Program-made: the position numbers and the translations under genes
In this document: positions 4,409 to 60,573 of the stretch, piece by piece
Layout of the letters: each line of letters opens with the position of its first letter
How positions within the stretch are numbered: the stretch's first letter is position 1
IMG/VR virus record: IMGVR_UViG_3300050821_004020
Location: 9,302-73,301 of that record
Source of the DNA: a virus
Taxonomy: Duplodnaviria > Caudoviricetes
DNA: 64,000 nucleotides
Direction: 5' to 3' (one strand)
The notes under the pieces: generated by a model
Told to the model about the DNA's origin: nothing
The model's input: only the letters and a program-made list of their open reading frames with translations
The model's database searches: none

Positions 4409-4618
4409 TTATTCGAATTTTACGTCCTTTAATTTCGTTGGGAGACAGCCCTGTTCTTCTAGCCAGCCCTCTGCAGCATTTTTCTCTTCCAACTTTATTC
4501 CCGCCGCTGATAAAACTTCTCGAGAAGAAAGAGAGTGCCCTTCCGAAAAAAGTACCCCGTCCACGTAGAGTCCTTCCCAATCCCCGGATGAACTGCTTAC
4601 CATAACGAGCTTCTTCAT
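4409..4618 (-). CDS. hypothetical protein
   Basis: ORF track; abuts neighbours. Confidence 0.65.
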   Translation of the reverse strand: MKKLVMVSSSSGDWEGLYVDGVLFSEGHSLSSREVLSAAGIKLEEKNAAEGWLEEQGCLPTKLKDVKFE

Positions 4619-7346: not shown

Positions 7347-7673
7347 TTAGAGAAGGTCGGCGTATGCGCCGAGTCGTACTAATCGCATAATTCCATCCTG
7401 ATGTCGCGGGCCATGTCCCGCGTCAAATGGGAGACTAACATGAACCATCTCGTGAAGTAGTATGGTTCTTGTTATCCGTCCATATCCCTTGTATCGCTTA
7501 TTGATAGTGATCGCAACGGGGTCCTCTGCCCAGAAATCCGTTGCACCACCTGATTTGCAAGGTAATTTCCCGTATTGAACGCTTATCTTTGGGAGCTTAT
7601 TTTTAAAGTACTTTCGGTTGTAATAGCGGTACAACTGTGCCAGAGTCGGTATCGTCCTCTTTCTCTTTCTCAT
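7347..7673 (-). CDS. SprT-like metalloprotease
   Basis: YNRKYF...LLHEMVH..GHG. Confidence 0.85.
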   Translation of the reverse strand: MRKRKRTIPTLAQLYRYYNRKYFKNKLPKISVQYGKLPCKSGGATDFWAEDPVAITINKRYKGYGRITRTILLHEMVHVSLPFDAGHGPRHQDGIMRLVRLGAYADLL

Positions 7674-7839
7674 TTATAATCCTGTGCGCCCACTTCTTGC
7701 GGGATGCTTCTGTTTCATTACAGTGTGGGAAGATGTTCCAGAATGCTACCCAAAAGAAATGCTGCTGAAGGTCCTTCTCGTATCGCAACCCGTTACCGCC
7801 AATAATTACGGCGGTCATTTTAGAGACTGTGCGGCTCAC
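7603..7839 (-). CDS. hypothetical protein
   Basis: ATGA overlap with the upstream gene stop. Confidence 0.55.
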   Translation of the reverse strand: MSRTVSKMTAVIIGGNGLRYEKDLQQHFFWVAFWNIFPHCNETEASRKKWAHRIINEKEKEDDTDSGTVVPLLQPKVL

Positions 7840-19430: not shown

Positions 19431-19807
19431 TTCGTTTTTCGCAATTGTTTTCTTCTGATAATCTCTTTCTTTAGCTGATGATTCATGCACAGAGTTTGAA
19501 ATCCTGGCGGAAAGCCTTGTTTTCTAAGTCTAAACATTCCCGTAACGCCTGTTTTCGAGCCGTGCTCTCTATCCTTCTTGCCGTTGTCATCAATATGATC
19601 CAACGTCAAACAATCGATATCGTTTACTTTACATCCTCGCCACGAGCAAAGCAGCTTCCCGCCCTTCCCGTAATGCGAAAGAGCCTGAACTTTGAGTCTA
19701 TCTCGCACACGATGATTAGACTGTCGTGATTCATGTAAGAAACGGGCGTATCTTTTGGGGCGGTTCTTTTTAAGATTCGCCCGCCATCGACGTCGATCAA
19801 AACTCAT
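19427..19807 (-). CDS. HNH endonuclease
   Basis: CSWRGC..LTLDHIDDNG...FQTLCMNH. Confidence 0.8.
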   Translation of the reverse strand: MSFDRRRWRANLKKNRPKRYARFLHESRQSNHRVRDRLKVQALSHYGKGGKLLCSWRGCKVNDIDCLTLDHIDDNGKKDREHGSKTGVTGMFRLRKQGFPPGFQTLCMNHQLKKEIIRRKQLRKTK

Positions 19808-41644: not shown

Positions 41645-42271
41645 ATGAGAGGGAACGTGAGAGAGAGTGTACTGCCGCAGTCGGTGTTTGATCGCCTTCG
41701 GGCCATGGCTCCGCCGCGCAAGCCAGAAGTTAAGAAACCGGCTGTTAGGACAAAAGAAAGGGTCAAGAAGGCCGTTAAAGAGAAAAAGCCTAGAGTTAGG
41801 CTGCCCGTTGTTCGAGCTAAGATGGGTCCTTTAAACGAGTTAAAGTGTTTGAACGTGTATTGTTCAAAAGTTTTTCAACCGACCTTACAGCGACCACATC
41901 GAGTCTATTGCTCAGAGCAGTGTCGAAAACGAGGGGAGAACGGTCGTCTCAAGTGTGTTAAGAGAATTCGTGCCCGGGACTATATTAGAACAATTAAGGT
42001 AAAGCAAGCGGTTTGTTCACATTGCGGGCTCCCGACGCTTCCTTACAACATGGATTGTCATCATCGGGATGCTGAAGATAAGCTCTTTAATTTGAGTCGC
42101 CCGCCAACGGGTATCTCATTCGCGCAAATTGACGCAGAGTTAGAGAAATGCGACTTTCTTTGTAAGCTTTGTCACGGTAAGGCAACGTACGATCCGGTCG
42201 CCTTCTTTACGGAACGAATACGCAACATAGGGTTGGAAATAGCAGCGGATTTGAGTATGGCGGGAGGATAA
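41645..42271 (+). CDS. HNH endonuclease with Zn fingers
   Basis: YCSEQCRK; CSHCG..DCHH..CDFLCKLCH. Confidence 0.75.
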   Translation: MRGNVRESVLPQSVFDRLRAMAPPRKPEVKKPAVRTKERVKKAVKEKKPRVRLPVVRAKMGPLNELKCLNVYCSKVFQPTLQRPHRVYCSEQCRKRGENGRLKCVKRIRARDYIRTIKVKQAVCSHCGLPTLPYNMDCHHRDAEDKLFNLSRPPTGISFAQIDAELEKCDFLCKLCHGKATYDPVAFFTERIRNIGLEIAADLSMAGG

Positions 42272-42273
42272 GA

Positions 42274-42669
42274 ATGCCTGAGCAGCACTGGGTCAACCGT
42301 GTCGATCAGAAAAGTATTGAAGCCGAAACCGTAAGGGACGAGGACGTTGGCGAGTTCCACGTTCACCCGCTTACCATCGAGAGAGCCAAGGAGTTGGGTT
42401 TGACGGATTGGGCCTTGGAAGACGAAAAGCCTGCTCAGCTGCCCCTGGCCCTGGATTATCCCCCGGAGCCTGAAGCTATCCCCGGGAGTATCCGAACCGG
42501 AATGCGATCCTCGGCTGAAGAAGTCATTAAGGCGTACAAGCAGGAATCAGAAGCGTTAGGGCTGTTGAACACCACATTGAGCCACGATCCCAGGTTCCCA
42601 GCATTCAAGGCCCAGGTGATCGCCGCATTCAAACACTTAGGCCTCGACGTTAACAAGTTCTTCGTATGA
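42274..42669 (+). CDS. hypothetical protein
   Basis: ORF track; SD GGAGG. Confidence 0.65.
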   Translation: MPEQHWVNRVDQKSIEAETVRDEDVGEFHVHPLTIERAKELGLTDWALEDEKPAQLPLALDYPPEPEAIPGSIRTGMRSSAEEVIKAYKQESEALGLLNTTLSHDPRFPAFKAQVIAAFKHLGLDVNKFFV

Positions 42670-42769
42670 TCTGGATCGCCGGCACTGTCGTCATCGTGTT
42701 ATTCCTTTTGGGCCGTGGCGGTCGTTGGTTAGGTTGGTTTAAATAATCGTAATTTAAGGGGGGTGATCC

Positions 42770-42964
42770 GTGATCGCAGGATTCATCGCAGGAGCAGTCG
42801 GAGTCATCGGAGCATTAATTGCAGCTTACAAGAGCGGCGGATCAAACGCTCAGACGTCATTAGCAAATTTGAAGACCGCCGTAGCCGCTGAAGTCGCAAA
42901 GGTTGAGGCAGCAGCTTCCGCCGACGCCAAGGCGCTGGTTGCAAAGATTAAGGCGTTGCTCTAA
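42770..42964 (+). CDS. small Ala-rich membrane protein
   Basis: N-terminal TM; SD GGGGG. Confidence 0.65.
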   Translation: MIAGFIAGAVGVIGALIAAYKSGGSNAQTSLANLKTAVAAEVAKVEAAASADAKALVAKIKALL

Positions 42965-42972
42965 AAATAAGC

Positions 42973-43001
42973 TTGACAGGTTTTTGAAGTTGTGAGAGTA
43001 T
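42973..43001 (+). promoter_or_regulatory. promoter of the tRNA array
   Basis: TTGACA-17-GAGTAT with extended TG. Confidence 0.7.
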
Positions 43002-43067
43002 TCTTTTAAGCAGTGGACGGGACAGTTAGTCATACCCCCCGGCGGGTGGGTTAACCCGCCACCTTTC

Positions 43068-43141
43068 GTGAGCCTGATGTAGCGGGAGCATGGCAGCCTG
43101 TGACGCTGTCTGGCTGGGTTCGAATCCCAGGGCGCACCCCA
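43068..43141 (+). tRNA. tRNA-His(GTG)
   Basis: Cloverleaf, loop CTGTGAC, C73-CCA; -1 base is C. Confidence 0.85.
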
Positions 43142-43145
43142 ATTC

Positions 43146-43328
43146 TTGGCCTGGCCGGACGGCCAAAGAGTCACCATGTCAGAGGATGCTGACCGGTTGT
43201 TGCTATTAGTTGAAGCGGCAGAGAAGATAGATAATAATCTGAGCGTGCTTCCCGTAGCGATTCAACTGTTGTATGATGAGCAGTACAAGATGTTGATTCA
43301 AGAAATTGCCAAGAAGGCAAAGAATTAA
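43146..43328 (+). CDS. hypothetical protein
   Basis: ORF between tRNAs; likely start MSEDAD. Confidence 0.5.
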   Translation: MAWPDGQRVTMSEDADRLLLLVEAAEKIDNNLSVLPVAIQLLYDEQYKMLIQEIAKKAKN

Positions 43329-43335
43329 AGTTTTC

Positions 43336-43410
43336 GCCGCTCTAGCTCATTGGCAGAGCGCCGGCCTGAAAAACCGGGCGTACGTAGTTCGATTCTACGG
43401 TGCGGCGCCA
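43336..43410 (+). tRNA. tRNA-Phe(GAA)
   Basis: Cloverleaf, loop CTGAAAA, CCA. Confidence 0.9.
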
Positions 43411-43418
43411 AGATTAAT

Positions 43419-43505
43419 CGCCTGCTGATGGAATTGGCAGACATGCCGGATTCAAAATCCGGTGCCGTAAAACGCGTCAGGGTTCGAGTCCCTGGTGGGC
43501 GACCA
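43419..43505 (+). tRNA. tRNA-Leu(CAA)
   Basis: Loop TTCAAAA, long V-arm, CCA. Confidence 0.9.
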
Positions 43506-43513
43506 AAGTTTGA

Positions 43514-43639
43514 TCTTCCGATCACGGGCAGCCACCGTGTGAGACGTCCACTAAGGGCGAGGCTGGTTAAGTAAGGGGCCCCTGAACAATCAGAGGCTAG
43601 CCCTCGGGCGATCCAGCTGGGATGCGCTGGTGAGGAAGA
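43514..43639 (+). ncRNA. unassigned structured RNA between tRNAs
   Basis: TCTTCC-GA-TCA/TGA-GGAAGA closing stem with three internal arms. Confidence 0.5.
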
Positions 43640-43648
43640 CCGAATTTC

Positions 43649-43740
43649 TGTCGGGTACGACGGGATCGTGGCAGCGACTTATAATCGCTTCTGGCCCTGA
43701 TTAGGCTTGCTAGATGGTTCGATTCCATCCTCGACAACCA
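43649..43740 (+). tRNA. tRNA with TAT anticodon (nominal Ile) and long variable arm
   Basis: TGTCGGG/CTCGACA acceptor, AGCGA-CTTATAA-TCGCT, 23-nt V region, GATGG-TTCGATT-CCATC, ACCA. Confidence 0.85.
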
Positions 43741-43744
43741 GTTT

Positions 43745-43827
43745 GGGCTTGTGGCGAAACAGGCAAACGCGGCGGACTTAAAACCCGCTCCGAAAGGATG
43801 TCGGTTCGACCCCGACCTTGCCCACCA
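43745..43827 (+). tRNA. tRNA-Leu(TAA)
   Basis: Loop CTTAAAA, V-arm, CCA. Confidence 0.9.
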
Positions 43828-43837
43828 AAGTTTCAAT

Positions 43838-43914
43838 GCGCTGCGATTTCGAGCGGCAGAATACCTCCCTCTTAAGGAGGCTTGGTCTCAGTTCAAGTCT
43901 GAGGCGGCGCACCA
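43838..43914 (+). tRNA. tRNA-Lys(CTT)
   Basis: CCTCC-CTCTTAA-GGAGG, CCA. Confidence 0.85.
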
Positions 43915-43919
43915 AATTT

Positions 43920-43995
43920 GGGTTCGTAGCTTAATTGGCAGAGCCTCCGTCTTTTAAACGGAACTGTGTAGGATCATTGCCTACCGGACCCACCA
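43920..43995 (+). tRNA. tRNA-Lys(TTT)
   Basis: TCCGT-CTTTTAA-ACGGA; T-loop ATCATTG; CCA. Confidence 0.85.
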
Positions 43996-44004
43996 AATTT
44001 ATGT

Positions 44005-44094
44005 GGAAGTGCGGCGAAGACGGCGGGTCGTGCTTGTCTGTAAAACAAGATGCCCTTGCGGCACTAGCTGGTTCGAATCCAGCCGCTTCCACCA
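44005..44094 (+). tRNA. tRNA-Tyr(GTA)
   Basis: CTTGT-CTGTAAA-ACAAG, V-arm, CCA. Confidence 0.9.
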
Positions 44095-44098
44095 TTTT

Positions 44099-44173
44099 AG
44101 TCTACTGGCGCAACAGCAGCGCAGTCTCTTGATAGGAGAAAGGTTCCTAGTGCAAATCTAGGGTGGACTACCA
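44099..44173 (+). tRNA. tRNA-Ile(GAT)
   Basis: Loop TTGATAG; T-loop TGCAAAT; CCA. Confidence 0.8.
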
Positions 44174-44185
44174 ATTTTACACCGT

Positions 44186-44261
44186 GGGGCTGTAGCTCAT
44201 TCAGGAGAGCGCATCGCTTGCACCGATGAGGCGTCCGGAGCAAAGCCGGATAGCTCCACCA
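44186..44261 (+). tRNA. tRNA-Ala(TGC)
   Basis: CATCG-CTTGCAC-CGATG; G3:U70; T-loop AGCAAAG; CCA. Confidence 0.9.
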
Positions 44262-44269
44262 ATTTCTGT

Positions 44270-44345
44270 TCCCGACTAGCAAACTGGTCGTATGCATCTC
44301 GCTTACACCGAGACAGGGAGTGTTCGATTCACTCGTTGGGAACCA
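44270..44345 (+). tRNA. tRNA-Val(TAC)
   Basis: TCTCG-CTTACAC-CGAGA, CCA. Confidence 0.9.
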
Positions 44346-44346
44346 C

Positions 44347-44422
44347 GGGGTGTTCGTATATCGGAACATTACGCGGCGCTACGAACGCCGAAAGCAGAGT
44401 CCAATTCTCTGACGCCCCTCCA
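44347..44422 (+). tRNA. tRNA-Arg(ACG)
   Basis: CGGCG-CTACGAA-CGCCG; T-loop TCCAATT; CCA. Confidence 0.85.
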
Positions 44423-44490
44423 ATTTTCGTGTGTCACTGTAAACTATCGGCCTGTAGGTGAGCATAGGCGTCCGAGCACGAATACATTTT

Positions 44491-44565
44491 GGCCCTGTCG
44501 TTCAGCGCACAGGACTCTGGTCTTCGAAACCAGCAACGTCGGTTGGAATCCGACTGGGGCCTCCA
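44491..44565 (+). tRNA. tRNA-Arg(TCG)
   Basis: CTGGT-CTTCGAA-ACCAG; T-loop TTGGAAT; CCA. Confidence 0.85.
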
Positions 44566-44615
44566 AATTTACCGGGATTACAACCGGGTAGCGAACGTTT
44601 TCGGACGTAAACCGA

Positions 44616-45041
44616 ATGGCTGGTGCTTTGCCGTTAGCCGCATCCTTTAAAAAGGAGCGACTGATGATTAAAGAAACACAACTGGGTATGCCATTTGGAA
44701 CGGCGTGCCATCAACTAAGAAAGGAAATTCTTTTTGAGTTGGTAAGAGAAGTAAAAAGAAATTTTTGTTTTAGGTGCGGCAAACAAATTGAGCTTAGTCG
44801 AGATTTTTCGATTGATCATAAAGAGCCTTGGTTACACAGTTTTGAACCAAAAGTTTTGTTTTTCTCTTTGACGAATATTGCCTTTAGCCACAGGCTATGC
44901 AATACGAAGGCCCGTCGAATTAGAAGAAAGTATTCGCCCAAAGAAGCGATACGAGTTGAGCGAGAGCAGAAAGCCGCATACATGAGGAAAATGTATACGA
45001 CCGAGCGCCGCCAATTAAAGTATCGAGCTACTGGGCACTGA
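44616..45041 (+). CDS. HNH endonuclease within the tRNA array
   Basis: CFRCG..SIDHKEPW..FSHRLCN. Confidence 0.8.
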   Translation: MAGALPLAASFKKERLMIKETQLGMPFGTACHQLRKEILFELVREVKRNFCFRCGKQIELSRDFSIDHKEPWLHSFEPKVLFFSLTNIAFSHRLCNTKARRIRRKYSPKEAIRVEREQKAAYMRKMYTTERRQLKYRATGH

Positions 45042-45048
45042 ATTCAGT

Positions 45049-45124
45049 TTCGCTCTGGTCTAACTGGCAGGACACTTCACTGTTAATGAAGAGGGTCTCC
45101 GTTCGAATCGGAGGGGCGGAGCCA
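45049..45124 (+). tRNA. tRNA-Asn(GTT)
   Basis: CTTCA-CTGTTAA-TGAAG, GCCA. Confidence 0.9.
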
Positions 45125-45131
45125 ATTTCGA

Positions 45132-45205
45132 GCAGTGATGATCTAGTGGTATGATGACGCACTTGTAATGCGTACGCCGGGGTCCGATTCCCTGTCGCTG
45201 CTCCA
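45132..45205 (+). tRNA. tRNA-Thr(TGT)
   Basis: ACGCA-CTTGTAA-TGCGT, CCA. Confidence 0.9.
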
Positions 45206-45206
45206 A

Positions 45207-45280
45207 GCACTGTTGATCTAGTGGTATGATGCCGCTTTCGTAAAGCGGACGCCGGGGTCCGATTCCCTGACGGTGCTCCA
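45207..45280 (+). tRNA. tRNA-Thr(CGT)
   Basis: CCGCT-TTCGTAA-AGCGG, CCA. Confidence 0.9.
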
Positions 45281-45285
45281 GTTTT

Positions 45286-45362
45286 GAGGTGGTCGCGTAG
45301 CGGCCTATCGCACTCCACTGTCTATGGAGTTTTCGTGGGTTCGAATCCCATCCGCCTCGCCA
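45286..45362 (+). tRNA. tRNA-Asp(GTC)
   Basis: CTCCA-CTGTCTA-TGGAG, GCCA. Confidence 0.9.
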
Positions 45363-45370
45363 TTTTTCGA

Positions 45371-45444
45371 GCACTCGTAGTTTAGTGGTAGAACACGCCC
45401 TTGGTAAGGGCGGGGTTAGGGTCCGATTCCCTGCAGGTGCTCCA
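45371..45444 (+). tRNA. tRNA-Thr(GGT)
   Basis: CGCCC-TTGGTAA-GGGCG, CCA. Confidence 0.9.
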
Positions 45445-45446
45445 GT

Positions 45447-45520
45447 GCCCATGTAGTCTAGTGGTAGAACGCAGCCCTCTCACGGCTGTAGCGTCGGTTC
45501 GATTCCGGCCACGGGTACCA
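45447..45520 (+). tRNA. tRNA-Glu(CTC)
   Basis: CAGCC-CTCTCAC-GGCTG, CCA. Confidence 0.9.
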
Positions 45521-45527
45521 ATTCTGT

Positions 45528-45603
45528 GGCGATGTCATCTAGTGGCCTAGGATGCTTCCCTTTCAAGGAAGTCACGCGGGTTCGAGTCCCGCCGACGCTA
45601 CCA
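45528..45603 (+). tRNA. tRNA-Glu(TTC)
   Basis: CTTCC-CTTTCAA-GGAAG, CCA. Confidence 0.9.
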
Positions 45604-45754
45604 TATTCTGAAAGTTGTCTGTTGGATACCCCACCGTACGGTGCAGTACATTAACATCGGTGTTAAAAAGACTTGCAAAGGCCAAAATGGATTGGTATAA
45701 GGATTCAGCAGTTGAGCAGTTAAATCCCATCCCTACCAAAGAGGAGAGGCCAAC

Positions 45755-45970
45755 GTGAAGAATCCGGTCCAGCAAGCAGGTATGAAAGAGTTGAAGCTGT
45801 CCTTTGATGCTCGTATTGATGATTTGCATTTGCAGGTCGGAGATTTCGTCAAAGTAGCGGATCAAGTATATAAATTTGTTGGTCGTGAATTGGGCGCTAG
45901 GGATCAATTCGGGAAACTCATTCCAGGTTTGAACCATAAGTATTACGATGTTCTCGAGCCAATCAATTAA
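45755..45970 (+). CDS. hypothetical protein
   Basis: SD GAGGAG; ORF between tRNAs. Confidence 0.6.
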   Translation: MKNPVQQAGMKELKLSFDARIDDLHLQVGDFVKVADQVYKFVGRELGARDQFGKLIPGLNHKYYDVLEPIN

Positions 45971-45979
45971 GTTCATTAT

Positions 45980-46064
45980 GCCCCGTTGGCGAAACTGGGA
46001 AACGCGCAGAGCTTAGACCTCTGTGCCTTCGGGCTTGGAGGTTCGACTCCTCTATGGGGCACCA
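45980..46064 (+). tRNA. tRNA-Leu(TAG)
   Basis: CAGAG-CTTAGAC-CTCTG, V-arm, CCA. Confidence 0.9.
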
Positions 46065-46087
46065 TTTTGTACGTACATCGGTTGGGC

Positions 46088-46432
46088 GTGCCGCAATCAC
46101 GCCCGACCACTCTATTGCGGAGAGAAAGGGTGAGAGAAGGGAAGGCTTATGAGCGTGTTCGTGGCGCTCACAAACGATTGGTTGTGAACCGTTGGAAAAG
46201 AAGAAAGGGCTGCGTTGATTGCGGCTACAAAGCCAATTACGACGCGCTAGAGTTAGATCACCTCTTCGGAAAGAAAGGCAATTATCGTACTGTTGCTTCT
46301 CTGATGTACGCGAGCTGGAGAGTGATCAAAGAAGAGATTGTAAAATGCGAAGTTGTTTGTGCGAACTGCCATGCAATTCGAACTCGGTTAAGAGAGAAAA
46401 TTTCATTGCGGGCACGGCTGGTGCCGGGCTAA
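46088..46432 (+). CDS. HNH endonuclease within the tRNA array
   Basis: GCVDCGY..LELDH..KCEVVCANCH. Confidence 0.85.
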   Translation: MPQSRPTTLLRRERVREGKAYERVRGAHKRLVVNRWKRRKGCVDCGYKANYDALELDHLFGKKGNYRTVASLMYASWRVIKEEIVKCEVVCANCHAIRTRLREKISLRARLVPG

Positions 46433-46479
46433 GCCTCATAAACTTTGGCGTCATGATTCGATTTCATGGCCCGCAACCA
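46407..46479 (+). tRNA. atypical tRNA with CAT anticodon (Met or Ile2)
   Basis: TGCGGGC/GCCCGCA acceptor, ACCA, loop CTCATAA, 4-nt D-loop, extended anticodon stem. Confidence 0.7.
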
Positions 46480-46493
46480 TTTTTAGGAGTCGC

Positions 46494-46694
46494 ATGGATC
46501 TTAAGTCGATACCATATTCAATAGCAAAGGTTGCCCGTGATCAAATGGCAGCCGGCACAAAGGCGGCAAAAGGTGGGGATGATGATAAAGCCGCGCCAGA
46601 GCCTGCTAAGAAACAGGAAAATCCTGCGGATAAGTCAACTGATGCTGTTAGTGGTCTAGTTAAGACTGTCGCAAGCCATTTTATGCCGAGTTAA
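46494..46694 (+). CDS. hypothetical protein
   Basis: SD AGGAG. Confidence 0.6.
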   Translation: MDLKSIPYSIAKVARDQMAAGTKAAKGGDDDKAAPEPAKKQENPADKSTDAVSGLVKTVASHFMPS

Positions 46695-46738
46695 AACTCT
46701 AGGGCCCGTTTCCAGGCCCCACAGTTAGGCTAACTCCG

Positions 46739-47179
46739 TTACTTTCGTTTTCGGTCGAGGACGCTGGCAGTTTCCTTGTCAACTACGTACAGATGGCCGG
46801 TCTTGCCGTTTTCACCATTCTGTCCGACGATCAAGCTGAATTTTTCAGTCAGCCCGAGCTTGTGAAACTGATAGCGAATTCTTGCTGTCATTTGTCCGGC
46901 GTCCAACACATTGTTCCACGGGTCAACGGTTGGGATGATGTCGATGTCCACGGCTTCAAAACTGCCGAGACCGGCATTGAGCTTTTCCATTAATGCGGAC
47001 CAGAAGGGGAGCCCCAAAATGAAAGCTTCCCGTCCAGCGCGAACTGGCGACGGAACATCTGTCCTCTTGACGATTTTGATTGCTGGTCCCCGGTCAGTTG
47101 TGTAATCCGGGCCGTATGTTGCGTTGATTTTTGTTGCAGTCGCTGACATTCTTTTCTCCTTTTGTGTTGCGGTTGCCAT
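46739..47179 (-). CDS. hypothetical protein antisense to the tRNA array
   Basis: 146-aa ORF with SD (AAGGAAG or AAGGAG) in a tRNA-free gap. Confidence 0.7.
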   Translation of the reverse strand: MATATQKEKRMSATATKINATYGPDYTTDRGPAIKIVKRTDVPSPVRAGREAFILGLPFWSALMEKLNAGLGSFEAVDIDIIPTVDPWNNVLDAGQMTARIRYQFHKLGLTEKFSLIVGQNGENGKTGHLYVVDKETASVLDRKRK

Positions 47180-47460
47180 TTTGGTTTCTTCCTTTCAGTG
47201 GCTGAGTTGATCTAGTTTATCTGAGTGTTAGAGGAAGCCCTGGGCTTTTTAGACTGCACTCTGGATTAAACGTCCACGGTACTAATTCTGGAGTTTAACC
47301 CAAAGCGGTTCAATACTCCAAACACTGTACGTCGGTTCATAGTACCTCTAGTCCTTAGTTTCTGGCTTTGTACGCTTTCGTACCGGCCATGTGTGTACCG
47401 TACAGAGTATTAGATGCCAAATCTGTGCTAAACAGCACACTTTTGGAATAAAGTTTTCGA

Positions 47461-47534
47461 GCGATGTTGGTATAGTGGTAGAACGACACCTTGCCAAGGT
47501 GTAGGCGCGGTTTCGATTACCGCACGTCGCTCCA
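47461..47534 (+). tRNA. tRNA-Gly(GCC)
   Basis: ACACC-TTGCCAA-GGTGT, TCCA. Confidence 0.9.
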
Positions 47535-47536
47535 GT

Positions 47537-47650
47537 TTGTCCGGTAGCTCAGATGGTTAGAGCGCGATCAGCAAGCCCGCTCATTCAGGTCATTCCTGAA
47601 TTGCAAGGCCCAAGTGGTCGAGGTCACGGGTTCGAATCCCGTCCGGCAAA
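47537..47650 (+). ncRNA. tRNA-like RNA with a 44-nt insertion replacing the anticodon loop, no CCA
   Basis: Canonical D arm TAGCTCAGATGGTTAGAGC, CGATCA/TGGTCG stem, AGGTC, ACGGG-TTCGAAT-CCCGT. Confidence 0.8.
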
Positions 47651-47662
47651 ATTCGGTGGTCT

Positions 47663-47920
47663 ATGACATACGAAGCCCTCGTGATCACGTTGGGGTTTGT
47701 AGTGGACTTGATCGCATTGTATTTTTTGGTCGGTATCTGGCGTGATGACAGGCTCATGCGGATAGCGGCAGAAGAATCCCTTAAGGCTCAGCTTGAGTAT
47801 TTGGGCTTGCGCCGTAAATGGTACGAGCAGCGCTCCGCAGCCAAGAGGAAGAGCGATGTGGGAAGACCAGGAACAGAAGCAGCTGGAACACAGGATGGCG
47901 ATAGTGCGAACGCTGTGTAA
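47663..47920 (+). CDS. small membrane protein
   Basis: N-terminal TM; ORF track. Confidence 0.6.
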   Translation: MTYEALVITLGFVVDLIALYFLVGIWRDDRLMRIAAEESLKAQLEYLGLRRKWYEQRSAAKRKSDVGRPGTEAAGTQDGDSANAV

Positions 47921-47984
47921 CATTGCCGGCGTCATTATAAGCCTCTTCTACGTTCTCTGGCAAATGAAGTTGATACGATTTTAA

Positions 47985-48058
47985 GCGGTGTTGATGTAAC
48001 GGTAGCATCGCAGTTTTCCAAACTGCTCGTCTCGGTTCGAATCCGTGACGCCGCTCCA
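47985..48058 (+). tRNA. tRNA-Gly(TCC)
   Basis: GCAGT-TTTCCAA-ACTGC, TCCA. Confidence 0.9.
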
Positions 48059-48082
48059 GTTTAATCCTCGAAGAGAGGTACG

Positions 48083-48388
48083 ATGCACGAAAGAATAGAG
48101 CGGCTTAGAAATCACGCACATTTTTTGGTCGGATATCGTCAAGAATTAGAGGAGGTACTTATGGCATTCGCAGACAGCATTGCAAAGTTGCAAGCGGACG
48201 TAGCAACACTTATCGCAGAGAACGGTCCCGCAGCGGTAACGGCGGCAGTAACGGCAGCCGTGGCAGCCAAGGACGCGTCAGACGCAGCGGCAGTTGACGC
48301 AGTGGACGCAACGGTAGCAGCAGCTCTGCCGGCAGCACCAGCCCCGGCGGCTCCAGCAGCACCGGCCCCAGCAACACCAGCGGCGTAA
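48083..48388 (+). CDS. Ala/Pro-rich protein (probable start 48161)
   Basis: SD GAGGAGG before MAFADS. Confidence 0.7.
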   Translation: MHERIERLRNHAHFLVGYRQELEEVLMAFADSIAKLQADVATLIAENGPAAVTAAVTAAVAAKDASDAAAVDAVDATVAAALPAAPAPAAPAAPAPATPAA

Positions 48389-48443
48389 GGTTTTTCTAGA
48401 ATACCCGGAGATCCGTGGCGGGTTATCCACGGTCAAAGTTTAT

Positions 48444-48518
48444 ATGAGAGTCGTCTAGAGGCTAGGACGGCGGACTCCAAACCCGCCTACGGTGGTTCGA
48501 CTCCATCCTCTCATGCCA
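48444..48518 (+). tRNA. tRNA-Trp(CCA)
   Basis: Loop CTCCAAA, GCCA. Confidence 0.9.
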
Positions 48519-48620
48519 ATTTAGTGGGGGGCTTATGAAGACTCATAAGTTTTTCACAGCGGTTCTGTATTTTGGTTTGACGATGATGTTGCTCGTGAGC
48601 CGGTATAAGCGATTTAAATT

Positions 48621-48917
48621 ATGACACTACCCTCTTGGTTGAGCTGGCTGACCGACAATTCCTGGATGAACAATCCAGACGTGCTTGCGCAGTTCGGTCA
48701 TGCGGGGATCCCTTATGGCGCCCTGTTGACGATGGATAAGTTTCATTCGCATTTGTTTTACCCAATCGGTCTAGGCGTAATAGCGTACGCCGCAGTTAAA
48801 GAATTTTGGTATGACGCGAACTATGAAACGCCCAAGCAGAGCTTCAAGGACAATATGACGGATTTCAGTTTTTATTGCCTTGGAGTCGGCCTGGCGTTCC
48901 TAGTTCACAATCTCTAA
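48621..48917 (+). CDS. membrane protein
   Basis: Hydrophobic segments; ORF track. Confidence 0.65.
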   Translation: MTLPSWLSWLTDNSWMNNPDVLAQFGHAGIPYGALLTMDKFHSHLFYPIGLGVIAYAAVKEFWYDANYETPKQSFKDNMTDFSFYCLGVGLAFLVHNL

Positions 48918-48925
48918 GTTTCAGT

Positions 48926-49000
48926 GGATCTATCTTTCAATGGATAGGAAGTCCGCCTTCTAAGCGGATAATCCAGGTTCGAGTCCTGGTGGGTCTACCA
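48926..49000 (+). tRNA. tRNA-Arg(TCT)
   Basis: TCCGC-CTTCTAA-GCGGA, CCA. Confidence 0.9.
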
Positions 49001-49004
49001 ATTT

Positions 49005-49080
49005 GGCTCTGTCGTTCAAATGGACAGGACGCGAATTTCCTAAATTCGTCATCGCGGTTCGACTCCGCGTGGGGCCTCCA
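49005..49080 (+). tRNA. tRNA-Arg(CCT)
   Basis: CGAAT-TTCCTAA-ATTCG, CCA. Confidence 0.9.
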
Positions 49081-49126
49081 GTTCTAGCTTAACGCCGAGT
49101 AGGGGACCAATTGGGCGGCGCGTGAC

Positions 49127-49510
49127 TTGCATGGTGCTCTACCACAGAGTGCAAGTGGGTTCAGCCCGATGCACATTCGTGTTCCGCGTTGGCAGTTGTT
49201 GGCTATTCCTTCGTTGGCGTTCGCAGTGGGCTTCACGATGAACGCGTTCGTTATGGCCATGAATAACGGTCAGATGCCTGTGTTGTTCCCGGGCGGAGAC
49301 CAGTCTGGGTATACTCAAGACACCATTCATTGCGCGATGACGATGGCAACGCACTTTAGATTTCTCGCGGATTGGATCAACATTCGCGGAGTTGGTATCG
49401 CCAGTCCCGGCGATTTCTTGGAGTGGTTCTCGGATCAAACAACTTGGCCTGGAATTTGGGCTTGGTTCGCGCTGATAGTCAATGACCACATCAAAAAGGA
49501 AAGGCAATGA
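49127..49510 (+). CDS. DUF5317-like membrane protein
   Basis: MN..VMAMNNGQMPV..FLADWI..ASPGDFL. Confidence 0.7.
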   Translation: MHGALPQSASGFSPMHIRVPRWQLLAIPSLAFAVGFTMNAFVMAMNNGQMPVLFPGGDQSGYTQDTIHCAMTMATHFRFLADWINIRGVGIASPGDFLEWFSDQTTWPGIWAWFALIVNDHIKKERQ

Positions 49511-49947
49511 AAGGTGTAATTTTAGCTGGACTGCTCGCCTTGGTTATGGTAGGCTGTAACATCGTTACGAAGTCAAACGACTACGGCGTATACAATATTG
49601 GGGTTTGTGGTGATGAAGCATTCATGGCGTCGAACGTAGACGTTGAAAAGGACACCTTCACCATTCTCGCGTCAGAGATGGCGCCAGGTCAAGCAAAGGC
49701 GCAAAGCAATAAGCCGATAGTATTTAAGTTTTCCAAGGTCGTAGACGGTAAGCGCGTTTACATTCTGGTCATAAATGGCCATGAAGACGAGATCGCGGTA
49801 ACCGCGCAGAACGGCGTAGTATCAGGAACGTTCTCCGTGAACAATAAAGAGCTGGCGGTCATTCATGGCGCCAAGGGTTCTTTGGATAAGATTGATGAAG
49901 TTGGTCAAGCAGAGGCGCAGTCTTGCTACGACCGAAACAATAGGTAA
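49507..49947 (+). CDS. lipoprotein
   Basis: Signal peptide with lipobox MVGC. Confidence 0.75.
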   Translation: MKGVILAGLLALVMVGCNIVTKSNDYGVYNIGVCGDEAFMASNVDVEKDTFTILASEMAPGQAKAQSNKPIVFKFSKVVDGKRVYILVINGHEDEIAVTAQNGVVSGTFSVNNKELAVIHGAKGSLDKIDEVGQAEAQSCYDRNNR

Positions 49948-49952
49948 GGATT

Positions 49953-50230
49953 TAGGTGGACTGGATCATCGCGGGCGCAAGCCTGAGGAACTTCAGGACA
50001 TCACTATACACAGCACCGTGGAAGTTGCGGGCCGGGTAACCGGACGGGTAAGGCCATCTTGCGGAGAATAGCCAGTCTAATCTACGCACATTCAAGGGTG
50101 GGCACTCCATGCTGGATGCAATCTCAAATAGGGCTGGAGCGCGTATAGCGTTATGATAGCCGGGTTGAGAGCTTAGACGGATGATGGTCGGGTCGCAAGG
50201 CTTACTAAATCCTGGGTATAGGTTCACCTA
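49953..50230 (+). ncRNA. rnpB: RNase P RNA, compact type-A-like, P18 absent and S-domain reduced
   Basis: P1, P2, P3, P4 with bulged U, P5-P9, P15-P17 and P19 all pair; GAGGAA (CR-I), CAA..AAATAG, GGU and ACTAAATCCTGGGTATA (CR-V) sit in register. Confidence 0.85.
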
Positions 50231-50240
50231 ATAATTTTAA

Positions 50241-50326
50241 GGAACGGTGCCGAAACGGTAGCCGGACTGGTTTGCTAAACCAGCGAGTGAAAGCTCGTGG
50301 AGGTTCGAATCCTCCTCGTTCCGCCA
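50241..50326 (+). tRNA. tRNA-Ser(GCT)
   Basis: CTGGT-TTGCTAA-ACCAG, V-arm, GCCA. Confidence 0.9.
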
Positions 50327-50387
50327 TTTGAATTTACGGGAACCCCGAGATAGCTACCCGGGGCCGTGAACCCGGTTGCAAACGGGC

Positions 50388-50465
50388 GACGATGTAGCTC
50401 AGTGGCAGAGCACAACCACTTAAGTGTGATTGAGGCCGTCGGTTCGAATCCGACTATCGTCTACA
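50388..50465 (+). ncRNA. tRNA-like RNA with aberrant 20-nt anticodon arm, no CCA
   Basis: GACGATG/TATCGTC acceptor, canonical D and T arms, 3' end TACA. Confidence 0.7.
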
Positions 50466-50471
50466 AATTTT

Positions 50472-50558
50472 GGATTAATGCGGTCCATGGGGGCCAGCGG
50501 TCTTGAAAACCGTGCCGGGTGTAAGCCCGAGTGGGTTCGATTCCTACTTAATCCGCCA
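50472..50558 (+). tRNA. tRNA-Ser(TGA)
   Basis: GCGGT-CTTGAAA-ACCGT, V-arm, GCCA. Confidence 0.85.
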
Positions 50559-50595
50559 GCCGGTCTCTTACGGGTAAAGCCGGGAGCCGGCGCCA
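50559..50595 (+). ncRNA. minihelix ending in G-CCA
   Basis: GCCGG-T-CTCT/GGAG-CCGGC plus CGG/CCG, then GCCA. Confidence 0.5.
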
Positions 50596-50600
50596 AGTTT

Positions 50601-50676
50601 CTCTGAGTGGCCAAGTGTTAAAGGCAGAGATCTGCAAAATCTCAAATCGTGGGTTAAAATCCCACCTCGGAGTCCA
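50601..50676 (+). tRNA. tRNA-Cys(GCA)
   Basis: GAGAT-CTGCAAA-ATCTC, U73-CCA. Confidence 0.9.
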
Positions 50677-50677
50677 T

Positions 50678-50753
50678 TGAGATGTCGTCCAACCCGGCAG
50701 GACAACGGTCTTTGAAACCGTGAATTCTGGTTCGAATCCAGACGCCTCATCCA
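50678..50753 (+). tRNA. tRNA-Gln(TTG)
   Basis: ACGGT-CTTTGAA-ACCGT, CCA. Confidence 0.9.
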
Positions 50754-50760
50754 AATTTAT

Positions 50761-50835
50761 TGCGATGTCATTCAATCGGTAGGATGACGCTCTCTGAAAG
50801 CGTTCATAGTGGTTCGAGTCCACTCGCCGCAACCA
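50761..50835 (+). tRNA. tRNA-Gln(CTG)
   Basis: ACGCT-CTCTGAA-AGCGT, CCA. Confidence 0.9.
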
Positions 50836-50842
50836 ATTTAAT

Positions 50843-50921
50843 CGGAAAATAGGGGAGCCTGGCTTATCCCGCTCGCTTTGGAAGCGAGAGCACGTTGGTT
50901 CGAATCCAACTTTTCCGACCA
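50843..50921 (+). tRNA. tRNA-Pro(TGG)
   Basis: CTCGC-TTTGGAA-GCGAG, CCA. Confidence 0.9.
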
Positions 50922-50922
50922 T

Positions 50923-51001
50923 CGAGAAATAGGAGAGTCTGGCTTATTCCGCCCGGTTCGGAACCGGGAGCACGTTGGTTCAAATCCAACTTTCTCGACC
51001 A
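50923..51001 (+). tRNA. tRNA-Pro(CGG)
   Basis: CCCGG-TTCGGAA-CCGGG, CCA. Confidence 0.9.
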
Positions 51002-58356: not shown

Positions 58357-60573
58357 ATGGCATTAACCGGGCAAGCAAAGAAGGACAACGAATTCGTTAG
58401 ACCAAGAGCCGTGAAACAGACCGAGTTCTGGGGCTCAATATTTAAGTCAGAGGAATCCGAGTTAGCAGGCCGGGATGATATTGATCCTGAAGTTCTGATA
58501 ACCATTCTTAATCCAAATAAGAGATTCAGGTCGGAAGCTCTGTCCACCGAGGATTTGTGGTTTAAGTATATTGGCATTGAGAAGGAGTCTGAGGAAGAAA
58601 TAGAACGCCGTGGTCGGGGGAAGAAGAGCAAAGAAACTAGGCTCGAGCCTATCAGGGCTCGCAGGCTCCCTGGGAGATTCAGCGACGACGGCTACTTAAC
58701 TTTCACTAATTGGCTATATGCTAGGGATCAGGCTCGTAAAGATTTGCTATGGTTATCTACTAGCGTACTGGGCGAGACTAGAGTTGATCCGTTTGTTCAT
58801 CAGATAATTTGTGACCAGTTTATTCAGCCGAACTTTGACGGCGTGTATCATGGCGGTTACGCCCTGGAAGAAGTTCAGTCCGCGTTGGATAGTCAAAGTC
58901 GTGTTCCCCGCCGCTGGAATGAAGAGCATAAGAATTATGTAACAGCATCCCAGGAAGATCTCGAGAACGAAGAGAATCGTGCTCGAATGATGATCTTGTT
59001 GGACGCTCGTGGGTTTTATAAGTCAACCCTGAATCGCGCCCACGCAATTCAAATGATATTGAATTGCCCTGATATCACCATGATGATTATGACCGCTGCC
59101 ACGTCTTTGGCGACGGCTTTCGTTCAGATCATCAAGATGAAGTTTTATCTTCCGCGTGGCGGCGAGCCTAAACCGCTGCAGTTGCTATTCCCGGAGTACG
59201 TACTTCGCGGAGTGGACGGCACGTCAGCTGAGCCTTTGCTATGTCCGGCCAGAATCCATGAACGCCCGTATCCCACACTTTGGGCGAACTCAGTTGGTTC
59301 CGTATTGGCTGGTTGGCACTGTGACTACGGCAAATTCGATGATGCCATAGAAATTAAGAATTCGAATACTGATACGCTGCGTAAGCAGCTGCGTAATGAA
59401 ATTGACAACATCATGAACCTAATTGACCCCTGGGGCAAGGTGGACATGATTGGTACGCGGTACTTCCCTGATGATTACTACGGTACCAGGAAGACCAGGT
59501 CAGATGACGATCCAGAAGATTACACGAAGATTAAGTATTTCGTGCGCTCAGCGTGGACGCCCAAGAGTCAAGCATTTGCTGAGATCGAAAAGAAAGACAT
59601 TAACAAGTTGACCTTAGATATGGTCACGCTTGCGTTCCCTCATCAAAAGGGAGATCCCGAGAGGACGTTTGCGTACCTAAAGGGAATTCTTCGCAATAAC
59701 GAACAAACGTTCCGATGCCAGCAGCTGAATCAGCCCGTCTGGGGCGATAGTCTGCCATCCTTCAAGATTGAAGATTTGAAGGCTCCGCATCGCCAGATGA
59801 ACATAGATTACGCTCGCCGGCTGCCCGGCGAAGTAAAGATTCTATGGGATCCGGCCAAGACAGCTAATAAGAATTCAGACTACACAGCCGGCGCGGCATT
59901 CAAGATCTTCCAGAAGGAAGATAAACGTATCGCCGCTATTCTTTTGGAAGTGGTCTACGATAAGTGGACTCAAACCGAGATTGTCCACCAGATGATCGAA
60001 CTAGATCATCGCTGGCAGCTGTGGAGTACGGCTAGGATTGTCAACCGAGCGGAAGATACCGGTGGTCTTGATTTGATGAAGATCAAGGTCATTCAAGACG
60101 CGGTTACCAGATACGGAACACCCCCGCAGTTTTATTGGATTCCCCCGACTAATGAAACGAATGCAAAGCGTAATCGTATCAAGGGTCTCGAGATCCTACT
60201 TCAGGAAGATAGACTATTCTTCGCTGACGGCGCATGGCTACATAGCGAAGACGGCGTATTCGCCCAGCTAGTAGCATACAAAGGTGAGAAAAGTTCTAGA
60301 ACTAGAAAGGATGATATCCCAGATGCAATGTCTTGGATTACAGCCTTTCTACCGAACAGCGTTCAACTGACAGAAGAAGAGAAGGCCTTGCAGGATATTG
60401 CAAAAGAGGCCGCTCAAGCACAGACGCTTTTAAGAGCGCAACACGAGCGTATTTTTGGTCGGGATGTTCCAGGGAATCCCTTTTTAGCTTCGGTGGAAGA
60501 TGACGGACAACCGTCTTCTCCATACGGCGACATCTCAAAGCGGCTGTTTGGCGGTAATGGAATGAGGGCCTAG
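58357..60573 (+). CDS. terminase large subunit
   Basis: Walker A variant ARGFYKST, HCDYGKFDD, IGTRY, nuclease WDPA..SDYTA, KDDIPDA. Confidence 0.9.
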   Translation: MALTGQAKKDNEFVRPRAVKQTEFWGSIFKSEESELAGRDDIDPEVLITILNPNKRFRSEALSTEDLWFKYIGIEKESEEEIERRGRGKKSKETRLEPIRARRLPGRFSDDGYLTFTNWLYARDQARKDLLWLSTSVLGETRVDPFVHQIICDQFIQPNFDGVYHGGYALEEVQSALDSQSRVPRRWNEEHKNYVTASQEDLENEENRARMMILLDARGFYKSTLNRAHAIQMILNCPDITMMIMTAATSLATAFVQIIKMKFYLPRGGEPKPLQLLFPEYVLRGVDGTSAEPLLCPARIHERPYPTLWANSVGSVLAGWHCDYGKFDDAIEIKNSNTDTLRKQLRNEIDNIMNLIDPWGKVDMIGTRYFPDDYYGTRKTRSDDDPEDYTKIKYFVRSAWTPKSQAFAEIEKKDINKLTLDMVTLAFPHQKGDPERTFAYLKGILRNNEQTFRCQQLNQPVWGDSLPSFKIEDLKAPHRQMNIDYARRLPGEVKILWDPAKTANKNSDYTAGAAFKIFQKEDKRIAAILLEVVYDKWTQTEIVHQMIELDHRWQLWSTARIVNRAEDTGGLDLMKIKVIQDAVTRYGTPPQFYWIPPTNETNAKRNRIKGLEILLQEDRLFFADGAWLHSEDGVFAQLVAYKGEKSSRTRKDDIPDAMSWITAFLPNSVQLTEEEKALQDIAKEAAQAQTLLRAQHERIFGRDVPGNPFLASVEDDGQPSSPYGDISKRLFGGNGMRA

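What the first reader, a model, noticed from the sequence alone, without database searches (positions are those of the whole stretch)
47537..47650. tRNA-like RNA with a pseudo-symmetric 44-nt insert in place of the anticodon loop
The D arm, variable loop and T arm are more canonical than in most real tRNAs here, but there is no CCA and the acceptor stem is bulged. The insert (47571-47614) can fold as a 4-bp helix GCAA/TTGC with a 9-10 nt bulge 3' of it on each strand (GCCCGCTCA, AAGGCCCAAG), capped by TTCAGG/CCTGAA. This is bulge-helix-bulge topology with oversized bulges. Simple splicing would not give a U33 loop. Inference: it may be a decoy for tRNA-targeting defences, a scaffold or guide presented on a tRNA body, or the substrate of an unknown endonuclease/ligase.
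Basis: partly seen in the sequence, partly recalled or inferred. Interest (0 to 1): 0.7.

Follow-up and report, generated by a model that had tools for sequence, protein, structure and literature searches.

The report
Orphan tRNA-shaped gene with long arm
A phage tRNA cluster holds one gene with an intact tRNA core, but a 46-base imperfect helix replaces the anticodon loop and there is no CCA end, so it cannot decode; it occurs only in this phage lineage, so it may be a dead tRNA or a tRNA mimic.

Summary
Window 47537-47650 (+) is a tRNA cloverleaf (Rfam tRNA 36.1 bits, cut-off 29). It has about 46 extra bases inside the anticodon stem, one bulged U in the acceptor stem and no CCA. It sits 2 nt after tRNA-Gly(GCC) in a phage array of about 35 tRNA genes.

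The bulge-helix-bulge reading fails. The favoured fold is a continuous imperfect rod stacked on the anticodon stem (-40.0 kcal/mol). No single excision gives a canonical anticodon arm.

The element is an orphan. The closest relative (neighbouring ORF 87% identical) has a clean gap of about 113-115 nt exactly where it lies. Six more distant relatives' arrays, IMG/VR and JGI metagenomes gave no homologue, so conservation cannot be tested.

My best reading is a lineage-specific, non-decoding tRNA-derived cassette, more likely a by-product than a maintained gene (0.5). A functional tRNA mimic is the main rival (0.3). It gains weight from the fully intact tertiary core and from many other CCA-less, insert-bearing tRNA-shaped genes in phage contigs. 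Interest is modest.

Seen in passing: a conserved phage RNase P RNA-like gene, and short intron-like inserts in other phages' tRNA genes.

The parts
47461..47534 (+). Upstream neighbour tRNA-Gly(GCC) with encoded CCA. The element starts 2 nt after it.
   Evidence: ARAGORN and Rfam 58.5 bits. It differs from the L200 orthologue by fully compensatory changes in the anticodon and T stems.
47537..47544 (+). Acceptor stem, 5' strand TTG(T)CCGG, with T47540 bulged.
   Evidence: Pairs with 47643-47649 in the MFE fold and in the Rfam alignment.
47545..47564 (+). U8, A9, D arm (GCTC-AGATGGTTA-GAGC) and G26.
   Evidence: Rfam tRNA alignment and direct reading.
47565..47570 (+). Anticodon stem, 5' strand CGATC plus A.
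   Evidence: Pairs with 47615-47620 at probability 0.81-1.0.
47571..47614 (+). Insert forming an imperfect rod. Helices are 47575-77/47607-09, 47579-80/47603-04 and 47583-89/47595-601. The apical loop is UCAUU (47590-47594).
   Evidence: Constrained and free folds and pair probabilities. z = -2.7 against shuffles.
47615..47620 (+). Anticodon stem, 3' strand T plus GGTCG.
47621..47642 (+). Variable loop AGGTC and T arm ACGGG-TTCGAAT-CCCGT.
   Evidence: Rfam alignment.
47643..47650 (+). Acceptor stem 3' strand CCGGCAA and discriminator A. ATTC follows instead of CCA.
   Evidence: Direct reading. 33 of 34 other tRNAs encode CCA.
47663..47920 (+). Conserved 85-aa ORF 13 nt downstream. It served as the anchor for finding relatives.
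   Evidence: 78 homologues. In relatives a normal tRNA precedes it.

Best explanation
The element is a lineage-specific tRNA-derived gene cassette that can no longer decode.

Inferred, not shown:
- It is transcribed with the rest of the array.
- Its intact acceptor/T-arm minihelix and D/T core let the usual tRNA end-processing enzymes cut it out.
- It then folds into an L-shaped tRNA body whose anticodon arm is lengthened by a rod of about 18 bp with a 5-nt tip.
- It is not expected to be charged or to enter the ribosome.

Shown:
- It has no 7-nt anticodon loop, no CCA and a bulged acceptor stem.

I judge it more likely to be an evolutionary by-product of the rapid gain, loss and recombination of tRNA cassettes in these arrays than a gene kept for a function. 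That is, a recently captured or disrupted tRNA.
For: - It is a significant tRNA match whose only disruption is inside the anticodon arm.
- It has no CCA, while 33 of 34 neighbouring tRNAs encode it.
- No single excision gives a canonical anticodon arm. ARAGORN's intron mode gives only forced fits.
- There is a clean indel of about 113-115 nt whose ends coincide with the ends of the tRNA shape, relative to the closest relative L200.
- The arrays of L001, L202, L204, L208, L209 and L211 are reshuffled and interspersed with HNH genes.
- Model R1 finds no copy with this insert in any relative.
- Pattern scans of IMG/VR and JGI metagenomes returned only chance hits.
- The only other contig carrying it, L207, is 100% identical to the window.
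Against: - All tertiary-interaction positions of a class I tRNA are intact by direct reading: U8-A14-A21, G15-C48, G18 G19, G26-A44, C13-G22-G46, the A9 triple, T54-A58 and G53-C61. The three departures lie only at the functional ends. This is not the pattern of random decay.
- At the roughly 15-20% divergence from L200, an old neutral copy should carry core lesions.
- The insert stacks coaxially on the anticodon stem and is more stable than shuffles.
- A second CCA-less tRNA-like gene lies in the same array at 50388-50462.
- Many unrelated phage contigs carry tRNA-shaped genes with long structured inserts. The ones examined end without CCA, and at least one family shows a compensatory change.
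Confidence: 0.5

Rival explanations
1. It is a maintained, functional tRNA mimic. On this reading the tRNA core recruits tRNA-binding factors such as processing or modification enzymes, or host tRNA-targeting defence nucleases. The long arm and missing CCA keep it out of translation, so it acts as a decoy, sponge or scaffold.
For: - The tertiary core is pristine and the lesions are confined to the anticodon loop, the acceptor stem and the CCA end (direct reading).
- The rod is stable and coaxial.
- It is placed like a true array member, 2 nt after tRNA-Gly.
- A second CCA-less tRNA-like gene lies at 50388-50462.
- In IMG/VR, 59 of 99 insert-bearing tRNA-shaped elements have no splice solution. 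These include rod-type L171 and L181, and an abundant family in which L183 shows a double compensatory change in the stem.
Against: - There is no homologue, so no covariation or conservation can be shown.
- It is absent from the closest relative.
- No partner protein was identified.
- The other phage families have unrelated inserts, so 'class' may be only a shared shape.
Confidence: 0.3
2. It is a precursor of a real tRNA, for example the tRNA-Met that this phage otherwise lacks. The apical 7-nt reading GUCAUUC carries CAU. An unknown, non-canonical processing pathway would make it functional.
For: - The window has no canonical tRNA-Met, while the six longer relatives' arrays (L001, L202, L204, L208, L209, L211) all have one.
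- The tip of the rod contains U-CAU.
- Other phages carry inserts whose excision restores perfect anticodon arms.
- Lak megaphages are reported to have 'enigmatic' tRNA introns (PMC6784885).
Against: - No single excision gives a 5-bp stem plus a 7-nt loop with U33 and R37.
- Using the tip as the anticodon loop needs two excisions, and the G-C pair that closes it favours a 5-nt loop.
- The best no-U33 product (loop CCCAAGU) would duplicate tRNA-Leu(CAA).
- There is no CCA and the acceptor is bulged.
- No ligase or endonuclease was found among the 29 scanned window ORFs.
- L200 also lacks tRNA-Met and lacks this element.
Confidence: 0.08
3. It is a Y RNA-like (YrlA-type) module that binds a Ro60/Rsr protein.
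For: - The T arm plus CCGG 25-mer is identical to tRNA-like modules arranged T arm, closed CCGG hairpin, D arm in several Actinomycetota genomes. I read that arrangement as YrlA-like, but these copies did not reach Rfam's YrlA cut-off.
- There are weak Rfam YrlA hits nearby.
Against: - YrlA scores are 17.6-20.7 bits against a cut-off of 69, and those hits only join neighbouring tRNA parts.
- The strand order is that of a normal tRNA, not the permuted order.
- No CGAAUGC-type helix is present.
- No Ro60-like (TROVE) domain was hit among the large ORFs scanned.
- The same 25-mer also occurs in ordinary tRNA-Glu genes.
Confidence: 0.04

Closest known systems
Degenerate or pseudo-tRNA genes and tRNA-like genes in phage tRNA clusters. 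From memory, this includes the two stable RNAs of unknown function in the T4 tRNA cluster.
   Same: It sits inside a phage tRNA array, is probably co-transcribed and processed with it, has a tRNA-derived shape and has no decoding role.
   Different: The core is fully intact. The disruption is a 46-nt structured rod rather than scattered mutations. It is absent from the nearest relative.
Bacterial Y RNA-like YrlA (Rfam RF02553)
   Same: It has canonical D and T arms with a non-decoding long helix in place of the anticodon loop, and no CCA. Its T arm is identical to some actinobacterial copies that I read as YrlA-like.
   Different: The topology is not permuted. It scores far below the Rfam cut-off. 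No Ro-binding motif and no Ro60 gene were found.
Intron-bearing tRNAs: archaeal/eukaryal BHB introns, bacterial group I introns in anticodon loops, and the 'enigmatic introns' of Lak megaphages (PMC6784885)
   Same: There is extra sequence within the anticodon arm of an otherwise normal tRNA gene, and the setting is a phage.
   Different: No excision restores an anticodon arm. The BHB geometry is not met. At 46 nt it is far too short for a group I intron, and cmscan at E up to 10 listed no intron family.
Insert-bearing, CCA-less tRNA-shaped genes in IMG/VR phage contigs (for example L171, L181, L124, and the family of L090/L183). I found no description of these in the papers searched.
   Same: Shared architecture: canonical D/T core, a long or irregular acceptor, no CCA, a 40-60 nt structured insert in the anticodon arm, and often a setting inside a tRNA array.
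   Different: The inserts share no sequence. The relationship is one of shape only, and common descent or common function is not shown.

Membership tests
Decoding tRNA | Cloverleaf with conserved D/T core; passes the Rfam tRNA model | tested here: met
   36.1 bits against a gathering score of 29. The tertiary positions are intact by direct reading.
Decoding tRNA | 5-bp anticodon stem closed by a 7-nt loop with U33 and purine 37 | tested here: not met
   46 nt lie between the stem strands. No single excision restores the loop.
Decoding tRNA | Continuous 7-bp acceptor stem with a 3' CCA, which is encoded for the other tRNAs in this array | tested here: not met
   T47540 is bulged. The 3' end reads CCGGCAA-A-ATTC. 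33 of 34 other tRNAs end in CCA. Post-transcriptional CCA addition cannot be tested here.
BHB-intron pre-tRNA | Two 3-nt bulges on opposite strands, separated by a 4-bp helix | tested here: not met
   The proposed bulges are 9 and 11 nt and lie 3' of the helix. That fold is -28.8 kcal/mol against -40.0 for the rod.
BHB-intron pre-tRNA | Excision gives a functional anticodon arm | tested here: not met
   Enumeration of all single excisions gave no solution.
BHB-intron pre-tRNA | A splicing endonuclease and a ligase are available | tested here: inconclusive
   None was found among the 29 scanned window ORFs. Small ORFs, about 9 kb of the genome outside the window, and the host were not examined.
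Group I intron in a tRNA | Intron over 200 nt with a P1-P9 core, matching the Rfam group I intron model | tested here: not met
   The insert is 46 nt. cmscan at E up to 10 listed only tRNA, YrlA and two trivial hits.
YrlA / Y RNA-like | Passes Rfam RF02553; permuted order of T arm, closed acceptor hairpin, D arm | tested here: not met
   17.6 and 20.7 bits against a cut-off of 69. The strand order is that of a normal tRNA.
YrlA / Y RNA-like | A Ro60/Rsr gene lies nearby | tested here: inconclusive
   No Ro60-like (TROVE) domain was hit among the scanned ORFs of 200 aa or more. The host genome is unknown.
Phage tRNA short inserts after nt 28 (ACAGCAA type, seen in IMG/VR) | Insert 2 nt into the 5' strand of the anticodon stem, whose removal restores a perfect stem and loop; hairpin followed by ACAGCAA | tested here: not met
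   The window gave no solution at any position. CAGCAAG precedes the hairpin rather than following it.

The most novel reading that the evidence does not exclude
The element is one example of a widespread, undescribed kind of phage RNA. These are tRNA-shaped, CCA-less genes in tRNA arrays whose anticodon arm is replaced by a long structured domain. They would be kept as mimics that engage tRNA-binding enzymes or host tRNA-targeting defences without entering translation.
Probability: 0.25. Interest if true: 0.7.

Novelty: new member of a known kind. Interest (0 to 1): 0.3.

Why it matters
If it is only a disrupted tRNA cassette, it matters little. It would illustrate how quickly phage tRNA arrays gain and lose units.

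If it is maintained, it would add a phage-encoded tRNA mimic to the known contest over tRNAs between phages and bacterial defences. That would justify a systematic look at the many insert-bearing, CCA-less tRNA-shaped genes in phage metagenomes.

The side observations may be worth more than the element itself. They are a conserved RNase P RNA-like gene inside the arrays of this phage group, and short excisable inserts after nucleotide 28 of tRNA genes in other phages.

Tried and rejected
- ARAGORN intron mode calls tRNA-Arg(CCT) with a 24-nt intron and a long variable arm. This is a forced fit.
- Brute-force deletion of 25-55 nt followed by ARAGORN gave only permissive, non-canonical calls, such as 'Cys GCA' with A33 and a mismatched stem.
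- A strict enumeration gave no solution.
- The tandem-duplication origin of the insert (GCAAG.CC and AGGTCA repeats) is no better than shuffles.
- The 11-mer GCTCATTCAGG is shared with the D arm of the phage's tRNA-Ala, but this is not significant: 149 of 200 shuffles reach the same score.
- There is no other copy of the insert in the window.
- The similarity of GATCAGCAAG to the tRNA-Ile(GAT) of L208 is a short match with no supporting context.
- The L091/L198 element shares CAGCAAG...TTGCAAG but has a different architecture. L197/L199 are ordinary tRNAs.
- IMG/VR hits to the hairpin 17-mer are coding sequence.
- Both JGI metagenome hits are chance coding matches.
- The INPHARED phage search matched only tRNA-Gly.
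- The tRNA-Met of L001 is not a relative.
- A tRNA-like element in a Nakamurella array (L235) shares the T arm and a CCCAA loop motif. This is too little to call homology.
- A second protein anchor (ORF 48083-48388) found no further close relative.

Full report
**Setting**

The window is a tailed phage. It encodes a large terminase (58357-60573), a portal (60580-62697), a DNA polymerase (17184-19490, minus strand) and a primase-helicase. A tRNA array of about 8 kb lies at 43068-51001, with 33 tRNAs by ARAGORN (a 34th call in the window lies outside it at 5881-5953) and one more by Rfam only. The Rfam-only gene at 44186-44261 is tRNA-Ala(TGC). No canonical tRNA-Met is present. No whole genome is held for the window. 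An ENA contig, L207, is 100% identical to window 41663-50456.

**The observation**

Window 47537-47650 begins 2 nt after the CCA of tRNA-Gly(GCC). cmscan gives Rfam tRNA 36.1 bits against a cut-off of 29, with about 50 nt inserted in the anticodon arm.

Direct reading gives the following parts:
- Acceptor TTG(T)CCGG/CCGGCAA, with T47540 bulged.
- U8, A9.
- D arm GCTC-AGATGGTTA-GAGC.
- G26.
- Anticodon stem CGATC(A)/(T)GGTCG.
- Variable loop AGGTC.
- T arm ACGGG-TTCGAAT-CCCGT.
- Discriminator A, followed by ATTC rather than CCA.

Every tertiary pair of a class I tRNA is in place. These are U8-A14-A21, G15-C48, G18 G19, G26-A44, C13-G22-G46, T54-A58 and G53-C61. In contrast, 33 of the 34 ARAGORN tRNAs in the window end in CCA.

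**Fold of the insert**

The free fold is -40.8 kcal/mol and the cloverleaf-constrained fold is -40.0 kcal/mol. Both give the same arm:
- 6 bp at 47565-70/47615-20.
- A 4x5 internal loop.
- 3 bp at 47575-77/47607-09.
- 2 bp at 47579-80/47603-04.
- 7 bp at 47583-89/47595-601.
- A tip of UCAUU.

Pair probabilities are 0.81-1.0. The insert alone is more stable than shuffles: -14.4 against -7.6 +/- 2.5 kcal/mol, with 8 of 500 shuffles as good.

Its 9-nt and 11-nt bulges lie 3' of the central helix. From textbook knowledge, the canonical motif has 3-nt bulges 5' of it. The 'pseudo-symmetry' reduces to short direct repeats that are no better than chance.

**Splicing**

I took the fixed D-arm end and the fixed variable loop, and listed every way to join a prefix and a suffix into a 5-bp stem plus a 7-nt loop with U33 and R37. 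The window element has no solution. The same rule recovers clean solutions for other phage elements. ARAGORN with introns allowed, and on 1,581 deletion variants, gave only forced or non-canonical calls. The tip can be read as GUCAUUC, which carries CAU, but using it would need two excisions. The closing G-C pair favours a 5-nt loop.

**Relatives**

The 85-aa ORF 13 nt downstream (47663-47920) has 78 homologues.

In the closest relative, L200 (87% identical ORF), tRNA-Gly(GCC) is followed directly by GTTTTGGTGATCTATG. The alignment shows one clean gap of about 113-115 nt, and its ends coincide with the ends of the tRNA shape. The flanking tRNA-Gly differs between the two phages by fully compensatory changes in the anticodon and T stems. 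Real tRNAs are therefore under structural selection at this divergence.

More distant relatives (L001, L202, L204, L208, L209, L211) keep the order Ala, Ile(GAT), ORF, Met(CAT), Gly(TCC). Their arrays are otherwise reshuffled and hold HNH genes.

A covariance model of the element (R1) found only ordinary tRNAs in these loci. The best hit was 37 bits, against 148.6 bits for the element itself.

Exact and gapped pattern scans gave only chance or unrelated hits. This covers IMG/VR, JGI metagenomes and GTDB genomes, as read. A second protein anchor found no closer relative. The element is therefore an orphan, and conservation or covariation cannot be assessed.

**Known families**

- YrlA scores 17.6-20.7 bits against a cut-off of 69. 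The strand order here is that of a normal tRNA.
- The T-arm 25-mer also occurs in tRNA-like modules of Actinomycetota arranged as in YrlA. It occurs equally in ordinary tRNA-Glu genes.
- No Ro60, RNA ligase, RtcB or splicing endonuclease appeared among the 29 window ORFs scanned.
- cmscan at E up to 10 listed only tRNA, YrlA and two trivial hits, and no intron family.

**Context from other phages**

A pattern for this D arm and T arm separated by 55-85 nt hit more than 117 IMG/VR stretches. Of 99 distinct elements, 59 have no splice solution. The ones I examined lack CCA. They include rod-type L171 and L181, and an abundant family in which L183 carries a double compensatory change. Several lie inside tRNA arrays. 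The window element shares their shape but not their sequence.

The only related literature I found is the report of 'enigmatic introns' in Lak megaphage tRNAs (PMC6784885). Searches for phage tRNA-like decoys found nothing specific.

**Judgement**

Shown:
- It is a tRNA-derived unit that cannot decode as it stands.
- It is not a BHB or simple-intron substrate.
- It is lineage-specific.

Inferred:
- It is processed like a tRNA and is not charged.

Whether it is maintained cannot be decided. Its orphan status and the fluidity of these arrays favour a by-product (0.5). The intact core, the lesions confined to the functional ends, the stable coaxial rod, a second CCA-less tRNA-like gene at 50388-50462 and the recurrence of the shape in other phages favour a mimic (0.3). 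A non-canonically spliced tRNA (0.08) and a Y RNA-like module (0.04) are unlikely.

Noticed in passing
window 49953-50234 (+); also L001:1014-1314, L202 ~3700-3920, L208 ~7649-7717, L209 ~9057-9131, L204 ~4222-4268: A compact RNase P RNA (bacterial class A)-like gene lies inside the phage tRNA array. It scores 95.7 bits against a cut-off of 100 (E 1e-28), at about 282 nt against a 367-nt model. It is conserved in the arrays of related phages. I found no paper describing a phage-encoded RNase P RNA.
   Followed up: partly
window 50388-50462 (+): A second CCA-less tRNA-like gene, with ACA in place of CCA. It has canonical D and T arms, but its anticodon arm is a helix of about 7 bp around the palindrome CACTTAAGTG, with a 4-6 nt loop. 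ARAGORN calls the anticodon 'taag'. BLAST finds no conserved copy in the relatives.
   Followed up: partly
window 43649-43740 (+); L197/L199; L202 ~4300-4420: tRNA(UAU) genes with a long variable arm. They are 92 nt in the window and give a weak tRNA-Sec-like hit. Related phages also carry tRNA-Met genes with an extra variable arm (L208, L209 and L202, about 85 nt).
   Followed up: no
IMG/VR loci L098, L103, L102, L080, L125, L144, L176, L083, L089, L099, L134: Phage tRNA genes (Asn, Thr, Ile, Lys) carry a 39-57 nt insert after nt 28, two bases into the 5' strand of the anticodon stem. Removing it restores a perfect 5-bp stem and 7-nt loop. The inserts begin with TA, hold a hairpin, and often carry ACAGCAA about 10 nt before the 3' junction. 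They look like a coherent short-intron family at a non-canonical position.
   Followed up: partly
IMG/VR loci L088, L110, L194 (also L147, L186, L188): tRNA genes with an insert of about 40-50 nt directly after U33. In L088, L110 and L194 the insert itself contains a T-arm-like hairpin. This recalls the 'intron that may encode a tRNA' reported for Lak phages (PMC6784885).
   Followed up: no
IMG/VR loci L090, L095, L106, L109, L113 and about 20 more; L183: An abundant CCA-less tRNA-shaped family. It has a 5-bp stem AGACC/GGTCT closing a 25-nt loop, followed by a variable region of about 20 nt. L183 has AGGTC/GACCT, a double compensatory change. A separate family (L105, L160) shares the insert motif GTAGGGAGTCATGACCTGAG.
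   Followed up: no
window 44186-44261 (+): tRNA-Ala(TGC) with G3:U70 but an aberrant T loop (AGCAAAG). ARAGORN misses it and Rfam finds it at 46 bits. L001 has the same type at 3135-3207.
   Followed up: no
L232, L229, L221, L240, L237, L239 (GTDB genomes): Copies, in tandem in several of these genomes, of tRNA-like modules arranged T arm, closed CCGG hairpin, D arm, which I read as YrlA-like. They are found in Actinomycetota, Lysobacter and Verrucomicrobiales. The three that were scanned (L232, L237, L240) did not reach Rfam's YrlA cut-off.
   Followed up: no
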